A stretch of 64,000 nt of DNA, from the NCBI RefSeq assembly GCF_035594765.1, contig NC_085842.1, positions 255,141,747 through 255,205,746 on the forward strand. The letters are read 5' to 3'. Position 1 is the first letter of the stretch; each line of letters starts with the position of its first letter. This DNA comes from Anolis carolinensis (lineage: Eukaryota). Below, piece by piece: positions 632 to 61,598 of this stretch. The notes beneath the pieces were generated by a model that did no database searches, was not told the origin of the DNA, and was given only the letters and a program-made list of their open reading frames with translations. The position numbers and the translations under genes were made by a program.

Positions 632-732
632 CCTCACAACCTCTGAGGATGCCTGCCATAGATGTGGGCAAAATATCAGGAGAGAATATCTCTAGAACAT
701 GGCCATACAGCCTGGAAAACATACAACAACCC
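632..732 (+). mobile_element. Penelope-like element terminal-repeat fragment with a degenerate hammerhead motif
   Basis: cctCTGAGGAtgcctgccatagatgtgggcaaaatatcagg...catggccatacagcctggaaaac. Homologous to 4230-4300, 18449-18533, 23520-23590 and 27111-27212. Confidence 0.75.
732..732. other. Right boundary of the Penelope repeat fragment next to the LTR
   Basis: Similarity to the other Penelope copies ends at catacaacaaccc. Confidence 0.4.
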
Positions 733-3848: not shown

Positions 3849-5117
3849 CAGGGCTGGCCCTAGGTAATTTTCAAGTGTAAGCAAACAGAATTTTGGCGCC
3901 CCTCCCCAAACCAATCACTGAAAAATAAAAGCGTTGGATAAGCGAAAATGCTGGATAATAAGGAGGGATTAAGAAAAAGCCTAAGTAAAGAAGAACACAC
4001 TGAAAACAGGGGAAATCCAGACAGGAAACAATCAGAGCCAGCTAACACCTCTCAACCAAGGATGTCCCCAGGGAAGAAGCAGCCAGGCTTTGAATCTGCA
4101 AGGCCATTAAATGCTAATCAAGCTGGCCAATTGCAACATTCACACTAGCCTCAAACAGACAAGAGCTCTTTCTCCAACCCTGGACTTTCCACAGATATAT
4201 AAACCCTACTTACCTAGCTTCCAACAGACCTCAGAACCTCTAAGGATGCTTACCATAAATGTGGGTGAAACATCAGGAGAGAATGTTTCTGGAACATGGA
4301 GACCTGGCCTCAAGGGCAAAGGCCAGAACAGGCCACGGCCGCAGCCGCATGAAGGCCTCTTACCTGCCAGGGTCTCTGGCGACCCATCCCAAGGCAGCCG
4401 GCGGGACCGAGCAGTAAACCAGTGCTGGTCCCACCGAGGAGAGGAACAGAGAGATAGGCAGCCACTTGCGCCACACAGTTACTTGACCACGCCCCATATA
4501 CTTCGAGGATACAGGGCGGGGCCAAGCACCCTCATGGCGCATGCACTGTGGTTGGAGAGGGCGCCCCACCCATCTTGCTGTTTGGACCACCTCTGGCAAA
4601 TGGGTGAGATGGGCGGAGCGCCCTCTCCGACCACTGGACATGTACCATACGGCCGCTTAGCCCCGCCCCATATCCTCGAAGGATATGGGGCAGGGCCAAG
4701 CGGCCACATGGCACAAGTGACCACCCATCTTGCTGTTCCTCCCCTTGGTGGGGCTGATGCCAGTTTACCGTTCAGTCCCTGCTTCGGGATGGGTCGCCAG
4801 AGGCTCTGGCAGGTAAGAGGCCTTCCTGCCTCAGCAGCCTTGCCTGGTCTCCAACCAGTCCGCCCTGCTGCCCCTTGGGAAGGTGTATTTGGCGGGGAGG
4901 AGACAGCCTTCAGGTGCAGGCCAGGATCGTTTGCCTGTCCTTAAAGGGGCAGCAGGGAAGCCTGGTTGGAGGCCAGGCCACAGAGGCAGGAAGGCCACGC
5001 CTGGGTGGAGGTGCCTCAACGGTTGCTGAAGGCGCTATCCTCCAGCCTCAACTGCACCCCATAGAGGATGGCGCCTTCAGAAACTGCCTAATTTGCCTTG
5101 CGGTTGAACTGCTCCTT
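3849..5117 (+). mobile_element. Composite non-autonomous hAT transposon with captured cargo
   Basis: Left end CAGGGCTGGCCC and degenerate right end GAACTGCTCCTT. 8-bp TSD actgtaat (3841-3848) / agtgtaat (5118-5125). First ~135 bp match 39940-40073 in reverse. Confidence 0.85.
4003..4300 (+). mobile_element. Penelope-like 3'/pLTR fragment nested in the hAT element
   Basis: Contains gatatataaac, followed by the same hammerhead-like block as 632-732. Confidence 0.7.
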
Positions 5118-5596: not shown

Positions 5597-6082
<486 letters not shown>

Positions 6083-8895: not shown

Positions 8896-10250
8896 TTTAT
8901 TTTTGTATCCCGCCACCATCTCCCCGAAGGGACTCGGGGCAGCTAACATGGGGCCAAGCCCAGAAAAGACAAAGTATAAACAAGTTAAACTATAAAACCA
9001 AACAATAAAATAACAAGCAGAATTCAAGCACAATTATACATAAACTCATAGGGGGAAAGGCGGTCACGAAGTTAGGTGGGTCCCGAACCATGTATGGCTT
9101 TGTAGGTGATTACCTGCACCTTGAATAGGGACAGGAAGGTGAACGGCAGCCAATGGAGCTCCTTAAACAAGGGGGTGGACCTATCCCTGTAAGTTGCTTC
9201 AGTTAGCAGTCTGGCTACCGGTCGTTGGACTAGTTGTAATTTCTGTGCTGTCTTCAAGGGCAGCCCCACATAGAGTGCATTGCAATAATCCATTTTGTAG
9301 GTAACTAAGGCGTGGACCACCATGGCCAAGTCAGACTTCATGAGGTACGGTCACAGTTGGTGCACAAGTTTTAATTGTGCAAAGGCCCTCACCTGAGCAT
9401 CAAGTATCAGCGTTGAATCCAGAAGGACCCCCAAACTGCGGACCTGCGCCTTCAAGGGGAGTGCGACCCCATAGAGTACAGGTTGCCACCCTATGCTCCA
9501 ATCCGCCGAACGACTGACCTGGAGGACCTCTGTCTTGTAAGGATTAAGCTTCAGCTTGTTCGTCCTCATCCAGCCTAGCCCAGTGGCCAGGCACTGGTCC
9601 AGAATCCGAGGGGCTTCCTTGGAATTCGGTGGAAAGGAGTAGTAGAGTTGAGTGTCATCTGCGTAGAGATGGCACCAAACTCCAAAACTCTGGATGACCT
9701 CTCCCAGCAGTTTCATGTAGATATTAAAAAGGATGGGGAAGAGAATGGAACCCTGCAGGACTCCACAGGACAATGGCCAGGGGTCCAAGCAGGTGTCCCC
9801 CAGCTTCACAATCTGGGAATGGCCCTCCAGGAAGGACTGGAACCACTACAAAGCAGTACCCCCAAGGCCCATGCCAGAGAGCCGTCCCAGAAGGATACCA
9901 TGGTCGATGGTATCGAAAGCCGCTGAGATGTCCAAGAGAACCAGCAGGGTCACACTCCCCCTGTCCAGTTCCCTGTGGAGGTCATCCACCAAGGCAACCA
10001 AAACTGTCTCGGTACTGTGCCCAGGTCTGAAGCCAGACTGCAACTGATCCAGAAAATTGGTGTCATCTAGGAACCCCTGGAGCTGCGAGAAGGTTAGAGA
10101 TTGGTCTGTAGTTATTTAACACAGAAGAATCAAGGGAGGTCTTTTTCAATGTAGGTTTTACTATGGCCTGCTTAAGTCAAGTTGGAAATTTCCCTTGGAC
10201 TAGCAAGGTGTTTATGATGGTCACAAACCAATCAACTAGCCAACCACTGC
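8896..10250 (-). mobile_element. L2-clade LINE, 5'-truncated, frameshifted reverse-transcriptase region
   Basis: QSGFRPGHSTETVL, LVLLDISAAFDTIDH, GVLQGSILFPILFNIYM, HLYADDTQLY, DYCNALYVGLP and LHWLP motifs in ORFs 9072-10043. 3' stem-loop at about 8910-8945. Confidence 0.92.
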
Positions 10251-18448: not shown

Positions 18449-18533
18449 TCCTCTGAAGATGTTAGCCAAAGAGGCAGGTGAAACATCATGAGAAAATGCT
18501 GCTAAAACAGCCTGGAAATCATACAACACTCCA
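18449..18533 (+). mobile_element. Penelope-like terminal-repeat fragment with hammerhead-like motif (second subfamily)
   Basis: tcctCTGAAGAtgttagccaaagaggcaggtGAAACATC. Confidence 0.65.
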
Positions 18534-21489
18534 AGCAAAAGACTTTTTAAAAAATTAAATGATCTGCAGAAACCAGGTTTTGAACGATGTGATATTCTTC
18601 CTTCCACACTTAGTTATAGTTAAGTATTGGAATAAATAAAAACTACAGCTCACTGGAAAAATCAGTAACATCCTTATTAAGTTACAATCACAATATATTG
18701 GATTATATGTGTCTACACTGTCATATAATCCAGTTCAAAACAGATAATCTGGATTTTATATGGCAGTGTAGAAGAGACCATTGCCTCTATTTTATGATTC
18801 TGCACTTGGACCTGCTCTTATGTTTCATGCTTGTTTTTATATACATAAGGTGTTTTATGAAGCTTATGTTGAAATGTAAGTTTCATAACAAAATCAGTGT
18901 AAATTAACTAAAGACAAGTTGTATAAGAAAAACAATGAATACTTGTTCCATCATGTAAGCATGGATAATGTGGCTTGGCATAAATGACAATCATGAAGAT
19001 TTCAGCTTTGATGCTGACATGTTGGCCAAAGTTTAATTGGTGTCTTGCACATGTGTAGGTCACCTTACAGTAAAAAAAAATTCTGATGTGGAATTGCCTT
19101 AATTTAATTCAAGAGTTACACATGTAGTGCCACTACTATACATGGCAGTGGATTCACATGGATATTGCATAAAGTTAGGCCTGTTGTGGATATGCATTTT
19201 ACATAATTGCATATGGATATCCAACAGAGACTGCATGTGCATAGTGATTCCTGATCCTCGACATAGGATGGTAACCACTAATTCACTTCACCTCTGCATC
19301 GCCTTTTGCAATTCAATTCATTTCTGGGTCTATTACAGTGAAAGCATTTAAGATAATGCTGGGACAGGCTGGAGGAGGGGAGGGAAAGAAAAATAATTAA
19401 TTGTAACACATTTCTTCAAAATGATTTTAAAAATAGATTTAAATGTTTACAAACAATAGTTCTCCCCATTAATTGAACTTGCACAATCAGATACCACAGT
19501 CTTGCATATCTTCTACATTATATATTTTCAGACCACTTATAGACCACTAAGTCACAAATTATGTACTGTTTAAATGTCAATTGATGGAGGGTTTGTTAGT
19601 TTTTGTTTTTGTTTTTGGAAGGGGGAGGAGAAGTTGGAAGAGGTGCATGTTCTAGTTAATTCAAGAGTATCAAAAACAAACCTTAATGAAATATAGTGTC
19701 CCATCATGCAAAATTGTAACAGACACATTCCGTATGTGGAGGTGTATCTTTAAACACAACCTAATGAATGACGCAGAAGTGACAAAACTGACAACACTAC
19801 TTTCCATTTAGACCTGGATAAACACAAAATAATGTACACATAATTAATCAGATATATATTCATATATCTGATGAATTATATATTAATTATTGTAGGCTTG
19901 CCTTACAATTGAGATAATACTAACAAATGAGTTAATTCTTTGAAGACATTCTTGCTTAAACAGGAACTACATAAATATCTTTTTTTTGGGGGGTCACAAT
20001 AAAATAATAGCAAAACGTGCCATCGAAGGATGGAATATAGACAATACACAGTGGATGAAAGCAGCTACTGTGCTTTTTGGCAGTGTTCTATCAATGCAGC
20101 ATGATAAAAATGTGAATTGGGAACTTCATATTTAGATTCAGAATAGAGCAGAGGCAGCTCTGTTCATGTGTCAGATATAAACACTGCACTACTGAATTTG
20201 GATCCTGATATAGAAAGGATTGTTTAAGCTTGTACTTGGCAACTGCAAGCACCATCTGGTGAGAAGGTTGTAACCCTTTTTGACCAGATTAAAAACTGGC
20301 AAGTATGATCCATAATCTCAAGTCTAGACTACTGAAATGAGCTCTGTGAGGGGCTGCTCTTGCCAACTATTGGCATGCTTCAGCTGGTTCAGAGCAAATT
20401 GGCTCTGGCATCTATTTTGGTTTCCTATAGCTTGTCTTCCATGAAGGCACAATTAAGATTGGAGTTTGGAACCATAAAAATCCTAGATAGCTTACTCCAA
20501 AATAGCTTTTGTAAATTACCTCTGCACGATGATAGTACTATGATATGAAAAGGCCTATTAATTAGTAAAAAGATGCCTATTGGCTAATGAATAACCATGT
20601 GTTACATTTGGAAAGCAAGGGCTTCTTTAAAGAATCATGAGCATAAAACTCCCTTTGCTTGACAGAACGTTATGCTATTCAGGAGCACATGTATGCAGAT
20701 GCATCACTACCACCATCATCACACACACACACACACACACATGCACGAACACACACAAAGACAACAGATGTGAAGCATTATTTGTCCCCAGTATACTTGT
20801 GAGGTAAAAGCTTAGTACTTTTGCATATACTTATTCTATCTATATTGTTGTCTGATTCATTACATTAACAGCTAAGAAACAGAGCCAGTATGCTGTAATA
20901 GACTGAACTCAGACTAAAACAAAGTTTCTCATCATAGAGGAAGGCAAAGACAATCTCTCTCTGAACAAATCATACCAAAAAAAGTCAATCATAAGTTTGG
21001 ATTAGGGTCACTAGAAGGCAGAAATGACCTAAAGGCTCACAACAACAACAACAACAACAACCAAACAAAACATTTCATTTTGACACTTGAAAAAGGCAAT
21101 ATTTGTCTGCTGAAATTCTGCTTGTATCCATCAGCACACACAAACGTACACACATGAACACAGTCACTTACACCAAACCCTCAAAGTTCTACATTAATAA
21201 AATAATAGCAACACTCTGCCACTGAGATAAAGGCCATTGAGGCCATACTAGCTCTGCATTAGAGTTACAAAGAATATTCAGACATATTTAAAACTGTTTC
21301 AAATGCTTGTTTTTGACTGCCAGAAAATCCTGACAAGAGAATTCTGGACTGACATTTTCTTTTTTGCAGTTTCAGATGTATTCTCCACAAAACCTATCTA
21401 TGCACAAAGAAATATGTGTGAACCGTGCACAGAATAAGTCCACAACTACAATATGTTTAATACATAAAGCAATATTATATGTATAAAAT

Positions 21490-22345
<856 letters not shown>

Positions 22346-22781
22346 TTTTGTGTTGTCTGTCTGAAGCTTTCTTCATTTTATATTTGGTAAACATACTGAA
22401 TTAGGAGTTGGTTTGATTTGGATGCATGCAGCTAATTTGGGATTTGACTTGCTCCATGTGTCAGGAACAGACCAATACTTATCTGGATAAAGAATGAAAG
22501 GAAAGTCAGGACAAGAGGTCGATGCTTCTCAAAGCTTACCATTAAAGTAATTAGTTGCAATTACAGTTCTAAAATGATAAGAGCTCAAGAATACTTAACT
22601 GTTAGTATAGTTATTCATTTTTATTTATTATGATCACTTAGTTTTTACTAGTTTAAATAGTTTTAAAGGTTTTTTGAAACTATTGTTGATTCAGAAAAAG
22701 AATACAGTGAAAGAGCAACAATAATACAAAAATCAGACTTTAAAAAAATACAATGCTAAAGCTATGCATGTAATTAGCTAC

Positions 22782-23377: not shown

Positions 23378-23519
23378 CTAGCTATTACAATACATTACAT
23401 TACAGGACAAAATCAAAAACAGACACATCAACAACACACACATCTATATTAATATACACATAAAAACTATACTAGCCAACAAACAAAAGCTTTTTAAAGG
23501 CTTTCACAGCCAGAATCAC

Positions 23520-23590
23520 TGGAGTGTTGTGTGGTTTCTGGACTGTATGGCCGTGATCTAGCAGCATTTTCTCCTGATGTTTTGCCTGCA
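23520..23590 (-). mobile_element. Penelope-like repeat fragment, truncated within the hammerhead
   Basis: Reverse match to 18475-18533. Confidence 0.6.
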
Positions 23591-24184: not shown

Positions 24185-26512
24185 TATATATATATATGCG
24201 TGTATGTGTATATGTGTGTGTGTACACACAGAGAAAGAGAGAGAGAGAAAGAGAAAAGCAATACACTATAAACACAATACAAATATATTATAATTCACAG
24301 GTTTTTTAGCCCCAGTAAACATGGAGGGCTAATTGTAGATTCCTGGTGCCAGTTTTGGCTTGGGCAGGGTAGAACTGTCCCTGACTGGCCTGTAAGTAGC
24401 CTTGGAGAACAGCTTGTGCCTCTGCACAATCTTTGAAAAGGTACAACTATTCATGTAACTGAGAGCTGCATCACCATAATGCAGCTATTGGATCTTCTCC
24501 ATTATTTAGAACTAGTTACTACCAAGTTCTACTCCATAAGAGTCTATAATCCTGGGCATAAGCATTATACAAAATGGAAATGGTGGTAATTTTTTCTCTG
24601 AGTTATCTGAATGAAAAGTTTGCCTTACTATCCTGAAAGTCTGGAAATGCAAGTTTATATTTTGGTTACTAGAGAACTGACAGACATCAGAAACTTACTC
24701 CTCCTTTATACATAAATGGAACTGCTTGCAACTCAAGCTTAGCCTACACTGGATCTGAACCTAGTATCTGCTCCTTAATGTATTCTTTAAGCGAAAAAAC
24801 AAAAAATAAAAAACAAGCTGCCTTGACAGATTTAACTTTCCATTCATTGAGAGTACTCAAGTGCTACATGCCAGTAGTTTCTGTGGCATAAAGCTGGCTT
24901 GCAGGCTGGCTGGTACATCAAAGGAAAAAGTGTGTCCCACAGCATTTTTATCAGCTAATAAACAACTGGATATACTCAGAATATCTAGAATGCCTAGTTG
25001 CAAAGAAAAAAAAAAGTATCTTTGATGGCAGCAGGGGCACTATCATATCTCTAGGCTAAAAACCTAAAAGGAGCTCATGACATACAGCAGGAGCCACTGC
25101 ATACTCTCTACAGCCACAAAGCTTTACTTTTGCAAATAGAGGAAGTATGTGTGTGTGTCTGCACTTCTTTTTCATTACCACTTGCTTTTAATTATCCACT
25201 TGAACACATAGGTACATCTACTCAGCAATTCAGGTTGTAAATATGTGGAAATTAGTTCCATAATGTTTCCTTCGTAATAAAAAAGCTGGTTCAATGACTT
25301 TAGAATCTTTCACAGCATGTGAACTATCACGCTGACAGTCGAACAAGACTAACATATAAAATGTTGAAATGTGAAGGACTGGAATGGGGGCTGGTGAAAG
25401 AAAAAAAATCTCATTTGCCACATTTATGCTTAAAAAACATGTACACTTTGGCTTCCATTATTATAAATGTAAATTGATGCAACTAGCATCTGGAAACATT
25501 AGTCAATTCCATCTGGATACTGGCATCCACAAAAATTTGACACACACAACAAAAACCTTTTACATAGCCAAATAAGCAAGGAGTCAGGATATGAAATATC
25601 CTTTTTTTATTTCCTCCTTTAAAGTATTCTGTACATAGCATTAGGAAGCAATGTTGCTGACATTTTTAAATACTGAACTTACACATGTTTAGCATTATGT
25701 TAGCAGCCATTAGAATGGGGCCCCAAAAAGCAGCAAAATCTGCTGTCTTAAGAGAAATAGAAATGTTGAGATCTTTTTAATGCATTCAGTACAAAGTGAT
25801 TGAATGATATGGCCAAGGAATGGGATCAAAATATATTCAAGTTCACAATAGAGCAGGTTTCCAACACAGCCAACAATCTCTCTCCAATTGACACCTGTAA
25901 ATGGGGTGATGAATTTGGAGTAGAATTTCAGCTCATCCCTAGCATGTCTCCTAACATCTAAGTCCTAGTAACTCAATTTTGTTCAAATTGCATCATATCT
26001 TTCTCCCAAGTTCACAGCAACTCACAACAGATCAAACCAAGGTTAAAAACAAATGTGTTATTTATTTTTGTGTGTGTATATACACACACACATATTGACA
26101 TGCCTACATGGGCAGAAAAATCCAGATCCACCCCAAATTGACTGTTCCTATGACATCTGTCTACTTCTGGTCAACATTGCAGGTTTTACTGGGTTAAACC
26201 AGCTTTCCCCTGCTTTAGACAAATTCAGAGCTCTAGAATTTACTGGAAATTCTGGAATATCCTGCAGGTTTGTCTGGATGATGAGATCAGGTTCAGTATG
26301 GACTTATCTGATATCTATATGGGACACTAGTACTATTTCCCTTTCCCCGAGCTCATCAGCCCTCCTCCTTCTTCCTGGTCATGCAGATGCCTTTCCTGAT
26401 GTTAGATCGGAGTGCCCATTGGGGGAAAACTGCTTTTTGTTTCTGTTTCATATCTATGGTTATGCAACACCCAGAAATCAGAAATGTTATTGATCAAGCA
26501 GTAAAAAAATAC

Positions 26513-27060
26513 TGCTGCTGCTGCTCAGTCATTTAGTCGTCTCTGACCCTTCGTGACCTCATGGACCAGTCCACGTCAGAGCTCCCTGTTGGCCGTCACC
26601 ACCCCCAGTTCCTTCAAGGTCGAGCCAGTCACTTCAAGGATACCTTCCATCCATCTTGCCCTTGGTCGGCCTCTCTTCCTTTTTCCTTCCATTTTCCCCA
26701 GCATCGTGACCTTTTCCAAGCTTTCCTGTCTCCTCATGATGTGGCCAAAATACGTCAGCTTTGCCTCTAATATCCTTCCCTCCAGTGAGCAGCATTATTT
26801 CCTGGAGGATGGACTGGTCGTCACCTTTTCTTGATCGCTTCAGCTTCTGTTAGGTCCCTGCCATCTTTGTTTTTGATCATGCCCATTTTTGCCTGAAATT
26901 TGCCTCCAATGTTTCTGATTTTCTGGAAGAGGTCTCTTGTCCTTCCTATTCTGTTGTCTTCTTCCACTTCCATGCATTGCTTGTTCGAAAATAGTTCCTT
27001 GTCTCTTCTGGCTAGCCTCTGGAATTGTGCATTTAATTGGGTACATCTCCCCCTATTGCT
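26513..27060 (-). mobile_element. RTE-clade LINE 3' fragment with an internal deletion near 26825
   Basis: Same family as 7431-7670, with a (CAG)n tail. 26830-27060 is upstream ORF sequence joined directly to the 3' end. Confidence 0.85.
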
Positions 27061-27110
27061 ATTTCCTTTCTACTACAGGTTCTTGTATTGTAATAGCCTT
27101 ACATTTATAT

Positions 27111-27212
27111 TGGGTTGTTGCATGTCTTTCGGGCTGTGTGGCCATGTTCCAGAAGTATTCTCTCCTGATGTTTCACCCACATCTATGGCAGGCATCCTCA
27201 GAGGCTGTGAGG
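27111..27212 (-). mobile_element. Penelope-like terminal-repeat fragment with the best-preserved hammerhead motif (27164-27204)
   Basis: Minus strand: cct CTGAGGA t gcctgc catagat gtgggt GAAAC ATC agg. Confidence 0.75.
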
Positions 27213-28389
27213 CATGTGATCACATTTATATTATTAGCTTTCCCTTTCCTGCTTGCTGGGGGGGGGGTGAGTGTAATTTACTGACCCCCCCCCCCCAGTG
27301 AAGGAGACCAGTAATCAAGTAGTCTCAGCCAGGACTACTTCTAAGGGGTATTTTCAGTTCATTGCAAGCACTAATCGAGACAACAATGGAGCTAGTGACC
27401 TAGTGGAGGACCCATTCAGTCTGTGAGTAGGGAAGGGAGGGGTGTGCATAGTCTTGCTTGTCCACCAACCCCTTTCCATTAAAGACACAGAAGTGGGGCA
27501 CTGAGGACACCATGGCTCCATTACTTGGAGGTTTTGATGGGGGTGGGTTTGCGTTTTTGCTATCTCCCCCTTGTTTGCTGATCCTTGTTCCCCCATGTTG
27601 GTTGGTGGTCCTGAGGGCTCCCACCTCCACCCTCACAAGTGCAGCCATAGCTGGAGTGCTCTGTGTGGGTAAAGTGTGGGGATCTGGGCCCATTGAGATT
27701 TTCATGTGGTTACCTTGCACAGGGAGATTTGGGTTTTTTCAGACTGTGCAGCTTTATGGCTCTGTGTCGCTTGCACATCGCTGGTCTAGACTTCGCTACC
27801 ATGGGATCACAGCCACCTGCCCCATGTGGACATTTTTGGGACCACATGCTGTTCCTAATTTCACTTCCCTTTGGGCTTGCCAGCTGTCAGAGATGCTGGC
27901 CTATGGAGGCCCATTGCAGCCAATGCTTTTGGGCCATGTGTTGTAACGGTTTGATGGCTTTTCTTTTTTTCTATAGAGGCCTCTGTGGTGGCCATTCTGG
28001 GGCTTAGTGTGCACAAGGCGGTGACGATCTTGGCTCCATTTATTTCTGTGCTTGAGAGGCCATCTTGGTTTCTGCATGCAGAAAATGCCACTGCAGCCAT
28101 TTTGAATGTCGTGTGCTATTCTGGTCACCCTGGATAGATATATTCTTTAATTGTTATGGCCACTGTTTAATGATTTGATAGGTTAATGACAAAGGAAAAT
28201 GCTGTTTTATTTAGCCATCCATTATTGATGGTCTGTTGCAACAACAACAACAACAACAACAACAATGACAACCCACAGTACAGTGGATGACTAAGAGGCT
28301 AAGTGTCTTACATGAAGCCAAATAGGATAGTTAACATGTTAATAAGTTGTTGTAATTGTGAGTAAATAACACCAGGATGTATTGACAAG

Positions 28390-29414
28390 TAGGGTTGTGC
28401 ACGGATTTCATTTCCCCTGTTTCTTGTTTCCTTCAGTATTTCAAGATCACGTACGACAATGGCTTTCCTGGTATGAAAACTCACCCAACACAAAAGCAAG
28501 CAGGAGCCGATCTCAGTTCCTCCTCCCCTATTCGGCATCATAGGGGCCGGGCTGTGGCGCAGCTGTTGAGCAGCTGCCTTAAATCACTCTGACCATGAGG
28601 TCATGAGTTCGAGGCCAGCCCGTGGCGAGGTGAGCACCCGTCAATTAAAAATAAAAAATAGCCCCTGCTCGTTGCTGACCTAGCAACCCGAAAGATAGTT
28701 GCATCTATCAAGTAGGAGATAAGGTACCACTTATAAAAAAGTGGGGAGGCAAGATTAACTAATTTACGACCTGGAATGAGGAAGTGCTGTCAGTGTGGAT
28801 GATGAAGCAGCTGCTCCCCCCTGTGGCCAGAATCGAACATCCTCTCAGAAGAAGGTTAACTTGCCTCTGCGTGTGTCTCTCAGTCTCTGTTTGATGTGTT
28901 TATGGGCATTGAATGTTTGCCCTATGTGTGTTATAATGTGATCCGCCCTGAGTCCCCTTCGGGGTGAGAAGGGCGGAATATAAATACTGTAAATAAATGT
29001 AAATAAATAAATAGTGAAATCTTTTTGATTTTCCTTTATTTTCCTGATTCTTTTTATTTAGAGGGAATGGTTGGGCGTTGAGAACTTGAGGGGCAGTGAG
29101 TGGGGTGCACACACCTGCATTTGGGGGCTTGGAGAGTCATCCTTTTACCATCTTTTTCTCTTTCCCTTCCTCTCTTTCAGAAAATACTTCTAAAAGATAA
29201 TAATTATTGTTAATTATAGTAACCCCACCAAACAAAACGGGAAGCCAACCCCCCCCCCCAAACAAGCCAATAGAAAATGGATCTTTTGGCACTCCCAGAG
29301 CAAAAACAGATATCTGCCCTCCCATACTCGGGAGGCTCCCAAAAATGGATTGGGGCCCCCACCAAAAGCCGGGGCACTAAACGGCTCACAATTTAACTGG
29401 ATTGCACAACTCTA
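28390..29414. mobile_element. Non-autonomous hAT-like element containing a nested SINE
   Basis: TIR tagggttgtgc / gcacaactcta. Perfect 8-bp TSD ttgacaag at 28382-28389 and 29415-29422. Confidence 0.88.
28543..29013 (+). mobile_element. tRNA-derived SINE with L2-type tail (Anolis SINE2-like)
   Basis: A box TGGCGCAGCTG (28555), B box GAGTTCGAGGC (28605). 3' stem-loop ccgccctgagtccccttcggggtgagaagggcgg plus (TAAA)n, shared with the L2 ends in this window. Confidence 0.85.
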
Positions 29415-31441: not shown

Positions 31442-32232
31442 TGTTTAATTTGTGCTTTTGTACCATACTGTTCATTTATATTGCACGGCATAGCAGACCC
31501 CTCCCCACACGGATGAAGCCGTGAAACAAAAGTGAAAGCGGCATGAAAGCTTTGCTGCTCCACTTGGTGCTCCCCGAACAGCCCTGGGAGCATGTCTACC
31601 GGCTGTGCTTGTTGCCCCTTGCCGGCCTCAGTGCCTGCCTTGCAGCCTGCTTATTCTTTAAGCTCAGGTCTCCTTTGCATATCGAGAGGGAGACCTCTCA
31701 GAATTGGTGGAACCTTCAGCCCAGTCTTTAAGCTCAGGTATCTTGTGCATATAGAGGGAAACCTCTTAGAATCAGTGGTACCATAAGACCTGCCTTTAAC
31801 CTTAGGTCTCCTCCACAGATTGAGAATAAAAGTCTCAGAATTATTGGTATCTTAAGCCCTTAAGTAAGAAGGTGGGACCAGGGGGAAAAGAGGGGATGTT
31901 TTTAAGGACATTTTATTTATAGAAAAAAAAATCCCTAAAATTCGGGGGATGACCCAAACCTTGTAAGAGTTGGAGAGCAAAAAGTGGTAGATATGCCCTC
32001 CATGTGTGGTGATGTTCACCCCTCTAGTACTAAAACTAAGTGGAAGGGGAGCATGGGCAGCCCACCTATTGCTGTCAGTGGGGCAAATGCATTTTAAATA
32101 TTCAGATGGTGAAACAAAATAATTCATTCGGATAGGCACCAGTTTCGGAAGCAGCGGATGGATATGGAAATGGAGCCATACAAATGAAACAAACAGAAAC
32201 AGGAACTGATTTCATACAATTGCACAACACTA
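31442..32232. mobile_element. Older member of the TAG-ended hAT-like family with 3 x ~70-bp internal repeats (31657-31860)
   Basis: Right end gcacaacacta. atatttac on both flanks (31434-31441 and 32233-32240). Left TIR is degenerate. Confidence 0.5.
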
Positions 32233-55096: not shown

Positions 55097-55291
<195 letters not shown>

Positions 55292-60856: not shown

Positions 60857-61598
60857 TAGAATAGAATCACAGAATCATATCGTTGGAAGAGACCTCATGG
60901 ACCATCCATTCTAGCCCCCTGCCAAAAAGCAGGAAAATTGCATTCAAAGCACCTCCGACAGATGACCATCCAGCCTCTGCTTAAAAGCCTCCAAAGAAGG
61001 AGCCTCCACCACATTCTGGTACAGAGAGTTCCACTGCTGAACAGCTCTCACAGTGAGGAAGTTCTTCCTAATGTTCAGGTGGAATCTCCTTTCCTGTAGT
61101 TTGAAGCCATTGTTCCACATCCTAGTCTCCAGGGCACCAGAAAACAAGCTTGCTCCCTCCTCCCTATGACTTCTTCTTACATATTTATACATGGCCATCA
61201 TGTCTCCTCTCAGCCTTCTCTTCTGCAGGCTAAACATGCCCAGCTGTTTAAGTCGCTCTTCATAGGGCTTGTTCTTTAGGCCCTCGATCATTTTAGTCAC
61301 CCTCCTCTGGACACATTCCAGCTTGTCTACATCTCCCTTAAATTGTGGTGCCCAGAACTGGACACAGTATTCCAGGTGTGGTCTGACCAAGGCAGAATAG
61401 AGGGGTAGCATGACTTCCCTGGATCTAAACACTATACACTTATTAATGCAGTCCAAAAGTCAATTGGTCTTTTTTGCCACCACATCACCTTGTTGGCTGA
61501 TGTTTAACTTGTTGTCCACAAGGACTCAAATATCATTTTCACACATACTGCTGTAGAGCATTTCATTTTTTCTCCCTAAGTGGAGTATCATGCATTTG
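60857..61598 (-). mobile_element. CR1 LINE 3' fragment
   Basis: ORF 60944..61456 ([20 protein letters not shown]...RRLRGDM...FKQRLD). Confidence 0.95.

What the first reader, a model, noticed from the sequence alone, without database searches (positions are those of the whole stretch)
27164..27204. Minimal hammerhead ribozyme motif, sense to the CNTNAP pre-mRNA
Seen: the minus strand reads CCU-CUGAGGA-U-GCCUGC-CAUAGAU-GUGGGU-GAAAC-AUC-AGG. This gives an intact CUGANGA and GAAA core, a 6-bp stem II, a 3-bp stem I (CCU/AGG) and an NUH triplet, with no room for a stem III loop. Known: Penelope-like retroelements carry minimal type I hammerheads thought to act as dimers. Inference: the ancestor read GGGC-GAAACGUC (palindromic ACGU), and two CpG transitions degraded this copy. 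It would be transcribed within intron 2 of a neuronal adhesion gene.
Basis: partly seen in the sequence, partly recalled or inferred. Interest (0 to 1): 0.7.

Follow-up and report, generated by a model that had tools for sequence, protein, structure and literature searches.

The report
Decayed anole Penelope-retrotransposon hammerhead fragment
This is an ordinary 105-base scrap of a known lizard jumping gene (Poseidon/PAc), one of over 28,000 copies in the genome; its published hammerhead ribozyme motif is present, but two CpG mutations have likely disabled it, and it likely does nothing in the CNTNAP intron where it landed.

Summary
The motif is real and correctly read. It lies in a 105-bp, 5'-truncated insertion (27112-27216, minus) of Poseidon_Ac/PAc, the anole Penelope-like element whose hammerhead is already published and assayed (PMC11167929). 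The copy differs from the printed consensus at 6 of 105 bases. Its ATG, cut site and 3' end match the paper, and an 11-bp target-site duplication flanks it. The genome holds at least 28,166 copies; this exact 40-mer occurs 1,384 times and the CpG-intact one 12,921 times. The core is no better conserved than its flanks, so the copies decay neutrally. Here G10.1-C11.1 has become G-U and the helix III palindrome ACGU has become ACAU (constrained dimer -2.2 versus -15.5 kcal/mol). No same-strand partner lies in the intron. Published PAc hammerhead cleaves only with PAc protein, is dispensable for insertion in vitro, and left no RNA-seq ends. The position, sense strand in CNTNAP coding intron 2, is confirmed but looks incidental. 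Verdict: already known, likely inactive, low interest.

The parts
27112..27216 (-). 105-bp 5'-truncated fragment of Poseidon_Ac (PAc) Penelope-like retrotransposon, pLTR/ORF junction, positions -21 to +84 relative to the ORF start; tailless class
   Evidence: 6 differences in 105 from the consensus printed in PMC11167929 Methods (compared by eye); boundaries from genome matches; +84 is one of the family's two 3' end peaks
27164..27204 (-). Minimal type I hammerhead motif (stem I 3 bp, core, extra U, stem II 6 bp, no loop III)
   Evidence: architecture as in PMC4209133 and PMC11167929
27195..27201 (-). CUGAGGA box, intact; A9 (27195) is also the A of the PAc ORF start codon
27175..27193 (-). 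Stem II and 7-nt loop; 11.1 (27175) is U instead of the family's C, so G10.1-C11.1 is now G-U
   Evidence: hairpin -4.4 versus -5.8 kcal/mol
27167..27174 (-). GAA box, helix III half-site and H17; 16.2 (27169) is A instead of G, so ACAU replaces the self-complementary ACGU; nominal cut 27167/27166, 26 nt after the start codon
27222..27232 (-). Upstream copy of the target-site duplication (11 bp perfect, 13 bp with one mismatch)
27101..27111 (-). Downstream copy of the target-site duplication, directly after the +84 end
55165..55275 (-). CNTNAP-family coding exon 2 (111 bp, start of the discoidin domain); host context
5792..5985 (-). CNTNAP-family coding exon 3 (discoidin domain), in frame with exon 2; host context
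   Evidence: PF00754 E 2.9e-15; best PDB match is the CASPR2 discoidin domain, E 2.7e-21

Best explanation
This is a dead-on-arrival, 5'-truncated copy of the anole Penelope-like retrotransposon PAc whose inherited minimal hammerhead is likely inactive and likely neutral inside CNTNAP intron 2. How it arose (inferred from PMC11167929 plus the anatomy here): PAc protein nicked an AT-rich site on both strands about 13 nt apart and began reverse transcription inside the element RNA at ORF +84. It stopped after about 105 nt, just past the hammerhead, and repair left the target-site duplication. Methyl-CpG deamination then changed both CpGs (the pattern is shown, the chemistry inferred). How the family ribozyme works: two motifs would pair through their ACGU half-sites to form helix III (inferred, PMC4209133), and cleavage needs PAc protein (shown in vitro, PMC11167929). 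This copy would form only two isolated A-U pairs in that helix, has a weakened core-closing pair, has no adjacent partner and lacks ORF +85 to +172, part of the RNA region PAc protein needed in vitro.
For: Identity with the PAc consensus; ATG and cut-site spacing as published; 3' end at +84, a family peak; TSD typical of the family, 37 of 92 copies with a duplication of 10 nt or more versus 0.2% in shuffled pairings; copy numbers 28,166 / 12,921 / 3,735 / 1,561 / 1,384 with controls 0; in 154 copies CpG columns differ in 117 of 611 cells, core 49 of 1,536, stems 88 of 2,604, loop 28 of 1,227, downstream 92 of 3,663; core versus downstream p = 0.19; all four CpG decay products also appear in 4 of 4 DNA contig sets; constrained dimer -2.2 versus -15.5 kcal/mol; in 264 kb scanned the nearest same-strand copy with a whole motif is about 49 kb away in the next intron; no cleavage without protein, no need for cleavage in insertion, no RNA-seq ends at the site (PMC11167929).
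Against: The double-CpG form is 3.1-fold more frequent than independent decay predicts (1,384 versus about 451). Age or methylation differences can explain this (doubly changed copies carry 2.3 other differences on average versus 1.1, and sit on several subfamily backgrounds), but some spread from an already mutated source copy is not excluded. All single-stranded core bases are intact in this copy. Inactivity is predicted from secondary-structure energies, not measured. A mixed dimer with an intact copy keeps 3 of 4 helix III pairs (-7.6 kcal/mol).
Confidence: 0.92

Rival explanations
1. The copy is a residually active ribozyme: helped by PAc protein, or paired in trans with one of the many intact PAc RNAs, it cuts CNTNAP intron 2 at a low rate.
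For: Core CUGAGGA, GAAA, U16.1, C17 and stem I are intact; sense orientation; 53 of 154 sampled copies keep an intact core and palindrome; PAc is expressed and its hammerhead is protein-assisted (PMC11167929).
Against: In a mixed dimer the C-A mismatch sits next to the A15.1-U16.1 pair of the strand to be cut (geometry); ORF +85 to +172 is absent; the paper found no RNA ends at the site in RNA-seq; a single intronic cut usually need not block splicing (recalled).
Confidence: 0.05
2. The copy was exapted as a host regulatory element of CNTNAP and is kept by selection.
For: Only its position, sense in an intron of a neuronal adhesion gene. No empty-site joint was seen in 4 of 4 DNA contig sets, which is weak.
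Against: Both changes it carries damage the fold; 1,384 identical 40-mers are spread on both strands (727/657); nine PAc pieces lie in the 264 kb scanned around it, 5 plus and 4 minus; the core is not conserved above background across copies.
Confidence: 0.02
3. The motif is a chance arrangement of letters, or only a by-product of the ORF start.
For: The bare pattern is near the chance level; no Rfam hit; fold z 0.07; no two-sided covariation, and an A-A mismatch in a sister variant.
Against: It is the published PAc hammerhead: C3G and G8C abolish cleavage and the double change partly rescues it (PMC11167929); the extra base after A9, the G10.1-C11.1 pair and the palindromic 15.2-16.2 pair match PLE hammerheads in general (PMC4209133).
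Confidence: 0.01

Closest known systems
Poseidon_Ac / PAc Penelope-like element of the green anole and its hammerhead (Frangieh et al. 2024, PMC11167929)
   Same: 94% identical over 105 bp; same core, extra U, stem II, ORF start overlapping the core, cut site 26 nt after the start codon, 3' end at one of the family's two end peaks, AT-rich target
   Different: Fragment only (-21 to +84), no RT or endonuclease, no tail; C11.1 is U and G16.2 is A; four further differences outside the motif, three of them at sites shared with many other copies
Minimal hammerheads (min-HHR) of metazoan PLEs (Cervera and de la Pena 2014, PMC4209133)
   Same: Type I topology, no loop III, unpaired base after A9, long helix II, short helix I, dispersed single copies from truncated elements
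   Different: The conserved G10.1-C11.1 pair and the palindromic 15.2-16.2 pair are lost in this copy; no tandem partner
Ultraconserved intronic hammerheads of amniotes such as HH9 (recalled, not tested here)
   Same: Hammerhead motif, sense strand, in a large vertebrate intron
   Different: Those are canonical, monomer-competent, low-copy and conserved; this is minimal, high-copy and decaying

Membership tests
Poseidon_Ac (PAc) Penelope-like element | Sequence identity to the PAc pLTR/ORF junction | tested here: met
   6 differences in 105 bp against the consensus printed in PMC11167929 (by eye)
Poseidon_Ac (PAc) Penelope-like element | ORF start at the base of stem II, cut site 26 nt after the start codon | tested here: met
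   ATG at 27195-27193, cut after 27167
Poseidon_Ac (PAc) Penelope-like element | 3' end at one of two internal sites about 33 nt apart (with or without tail), 5' truncation, AT-rich TSD | tested here: met
   End at +84; family ends peak at +82 to +87 and +116/117; TSD
Poseidon_Ac (PAc) Penelope-like element | RT plus GIY-YIG ORF (autonomous element) | tested here: not met
   Only 28 codons of the ORF are present: a non-autonomous fragment
PLE minimal type I hammerhead | CUGANGA, GAAA and NUH core | tested here: met
PLE minimal type I hammerhead | Unpaired base between A9 and 10.1 | tested here: met
   U at 27194; 148 of 154 copies
PLE minimal type I hammerhead | G10.1-C11.1 pair | tested here: not met
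   G-U in this copy; G-C in 99 of 154 copies
PLE minimal type I hammerhead | Palindromic 15.2-16.2 allowing a dimeric helix III | tested here: not met
   ACAU in this copy; G at 16.2 in 119 of 154 copies
PLE minimal type I hammerhead | Compensatory changes in the stems | tested here: inconclusive
   Only one-sided changes in 154 copies (5 with a fully Watson-Crick 3' stem II strand); at 10.4/11.4, 1 of 100 listed variants is A-U and 24 are A-A; the family is too young and too homogeneous for this test
PLE minimal type I hammerhead | Self-cleavage | not testable with these tools
   Shown for the consensus only, and only with PAc protein (PMC11167929)
Rfam hammerhead families | Covariance-model match | tested here: not met
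   No hammerhead family among 3 matches at E <= 10 in 26000-28500

The most novel reading that the evidence does not exclude
Thousands of intronic PAc hammerheads, about a third still intact, form a latent genome-wide network of pre-mRNA cut sites that PAc protein or PAc RNA switches on in trans, and this copy cleaves CNTNAP intron 2 as half of a mixed dimer.
Probability: 0.04. Interest if true: 0.6.

Novelty: already known. Interest (0 to 1): 0.1.

Why it matters
It matters little as a locus: it is a decayed copy of a published ribozyme in a very high-copy repeat. It is a useful reminder that in anoles a hammerhead motif in an intron is expected by chance, at roughly one flank-intact copy per 66 kb. 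It would matter only if intronic copies were cut in vivo, because then an active retrotransposon could affect host pre-mRNAs in trans. The by-product that may interest PLE specialists is the count that 36 of 38 inverted PAc pairs under one TSD join a tailed and a tailless arm.

Tried and rejected
Rfam scan: no hammerhead hit; the models did not recognise this minimal motif. Single-strand folding: no signal at 41, 66 or 121 nt. Second core-like match at 26342-26359: not pursued; it shows no PAc similarity. RNA ends at 27167/27166: no RNA holder listed; four guessed-RNA runs are contigs only and cannot show ends, strand or level, and the repeat part draws contigs from all copies; this is no evidence either way. 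Empty-site polymorphism: no skipping joint in 4 of 4 DNA contig sets; contigs reach both junctions but with only 25-30 letters inside the element, short of the tool's 31-letter rule. Covariation at stem II 10.4/11.4: not found. Naming the CNTNAP paralogue: the Atlas gave no answer; CNTNAP3/4-like is from recall only. Pfam found nothing for the two neighbouring LINE-like frames. Earlier scan findings by sequence: none. Supplement figures of PMC11167929 (Fig. S2, the GenBank file) could not be seen; they bear on the exact RT start positions and on whether the tail asymmetry is already counted there.

Full report
Observation. It has a 3-bp stem I, CUGAGGA (27201-27195), an extra U (27194), a 6-bp stem II with a 7-nt loop, GAAA (27174-27171), and C-A-U-C with H17 at 27167. 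Three of the six stem II pairs are G-U. Taken alone the motif is weak: the bare core pattern matches 11 times in the window against 7.1 +/- 2.5 expected, with 5 of 100 shuffles reaching 11; the 41-mer folds at z 0.07; Rfam lists no hammerhead among its 3 matches at E <= 10.

What it is. A search of the own genome with 27085-27260 returned 1,264 candidates, 40 scored, and the matches share about positions 45-149 of the query, that is window 27216-27112. This 105-bp piece differs at 6 bases from the Poseidon_Ac (PAc) consensus RNA printed in the Methods of Frangieh et al. 2024 (PMC11167929; compared by eye). That paper puts the ORF start at the base of stem II and the cut 26 nt after the start codon; here the ATG is 27195-27193 and the cut follows 27167, which agrees. 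The fragment spans -21 to +84 of the ORF. Among 244 hits in the fetched loci, 3' ends cluster at +82 to +87 and at +116/117 (129 tailless, 100 tailed, 15 unclassed), the two classes the paper links to two internal RT starts. An 11-bp direct repeat (13 bp with one mismatch) flanks the copy at 27222-27232 and 27101-27111. Such duplications are typical: 37 of 92 copies have one of 10 nt or more within 250 nt upstream, against 0.2% in shuffled pairings; 8 of the 37 come from tandem arrays rather than target sites. The host is inferred to be an anole from this near identity.

Copy number. Exact genome counts, all with reversed-pattern controls of 0: 28,166 copies with both flanks intact and 41 nt between them; 12,921 with both CpGs intact; 3,735 with only the 11.1 change; 1,561 with only the 16.2 change; 1,384 identical to the window 40-mer, 727 forward and 657 reverse.

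The CpG inference. I fetched 60 stretches (600 kb) of contig C1, most of them placed around listed flank-anchored matches. They gave 209 hits, of which 154 span the motif plus 15 nt; 55 partial hits were dropped. The majority has C at 11.1 (105 of 154) and G at 16.2 (119 of 154). CpG columns differ in 19% of cells, against 3.2% for the non-CpG core, 3.4% for stems, 2.3% for loop and 2.5% for downstream sequence; core versus downstream p = 0.19. Both C-to-T and G-to-A products occur at both CpGs, also in 4 of 4 public DNA contig sets. Against a pure independent-decay model, the double change is 3.1-fold too common (1,384 versus about 451). Doubly changed copies are more diverged elsewhere (2.3 versus 1.1 differences; 7 and 67 copies) and lie on several subfamily backgrounds, which fits age or methylation differences; spread from a mutated source is not excluded. 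Covariation was not found: changes in the 154 copies are one-sided, and among the first 100 of 1,287 stem-variant copies 24 have an A-A mismatch at 10.4/11.4 and 1 has A-U (counted by eye).

Would it cut? PLE minimal hammerheads are thought to work as dimers through a palindromic 15.2-16.2, keep G10.1-C11.1, and showed no monomer activity and low dimer activity in the motif tested (PMC4209133). This copy has lost both features. The constrained double-hammerhead scores -2.2 kcal/mol for two window copies, -15.5 for two intact natural copies and -7.6 for a mixed pair; in all three cases an alternative fold is lower in energy (secondary structure only). In 264 kb around the site there are 9 PAc hits, 5 plus and 4 minus. 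Intron 2 holds this copy, one antisense relic (18450-18509) and one sense relic without a recognisable 5' core (about 23497-23582); the nearest same-strand whole motif is about 49 kb away in the next intron. For the consensus, the paper reports cleavage only with PAc protein, loss with C3G or G8C and partial rescue by both, no need for cleavage in insertion, and no RNA-seq reads ending at the site; insertion needed ORF RNA to +172, which this fragment lacks. Inactivity of this copy is therefore inferred, not measured.

Host context. Minus-strand exons at 55165-55275 and 5792-5985 join in frame and encode a discoidin domain (PF00754, E 2.9e-15; best PDB match CASPR2, E 2.7e-21). A candidate signal-peptide exon lies upstream, and further discoidin and laminin-G-like exons lie downstream (the domain names for those are recalled). 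The motif is sense in coding intron 2, 28 kb from the donor and 21 kb from the acceptor. The paralogue looks CNTNAP3/4-like (recalled, not tested). RNA evidence at the locus could not be obtained.

Literature seen. PMC11167929: main text parts 1-3 of 4, a term search, and the text layer of supplements 1 and 2; figures and the GenBank file were not visible. PMC4209133: parts 1-2 of 4. PMC3846280, PMC8557442, PMC8969392 and bioRxiv 10.64898/2026.07.22.740005: passages only. Searches.

Verdict. Already known; a correct identification of an ordinary, decayed copy. Interest 0.1. The boldest reading left open, intronic PAc hammerheads cut in trans, has about 4% probability.

Noticed in passing
fetched loci L002-L110, e.g. 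L005:463-1605, L006:1468-1718, L025:1374-1615, L028:1468-1709, L085:4473-4704: Of 74 candidate head-to-head PAc pairings, 38 share a flanking duplication of 9 nt or more (mostly 10-15); 36 of those 38 join one tailed arm (+117) and one tailless arm (+84), 2 are tailless-tailless and none tailed-tailed. This suggests each nicked strand is primed at a different RT start. A tail on one arm is known qualitatively (PMC3846280, PMC8557442); the term search of PMC11167929 showed no passage on it. The sample is not random.
   Followed up: partly
window 632-732 (+), 4110-4299 (+), 18450-18509 (+), 23497-23582 (-): Four more PAc-related relics in the window, older and more decayed; two in intron 3 and two in intron 2.
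   Followed up: partly
L008:2051-3118: Tandem array of about ten 112-bp PAc hammerhead units, head to tail, resembling a retrozyme-like array in which dimers could form; several units carry core changes. A six-unit array with about 141-bp spacing appears at G000:C1:60536524-60537260.
   Followed up: no
G000, listing: A sister PAc-like subfamily has N7 = A and an A-A mismatch at stem II 10.4/11.4 (24 of 100 listed).
   Followed up: no
window about 26520-27070 (-): Rearranged, high-copy LINE fragment beside the insertion; RTE/BovB-like by recall, no Pfam hit.
   Followed up: partly
window 27256-27298: 21-bp inverted repeat of G and C runs, 40 nt upstream of the insertion; weak Rfam miRNA-like match far below its gathering score.
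   Followed up: no
window 31655-31860: Three-copy tandem repeat of about 69 bp.
   Followed up: no
window 60947-61459 (-), 21478-22377 (-), 9075-10044: Long open frames resembling LINE reverse-transcriptase ends (CR1- and L2-like by recall).
   Followed up: no
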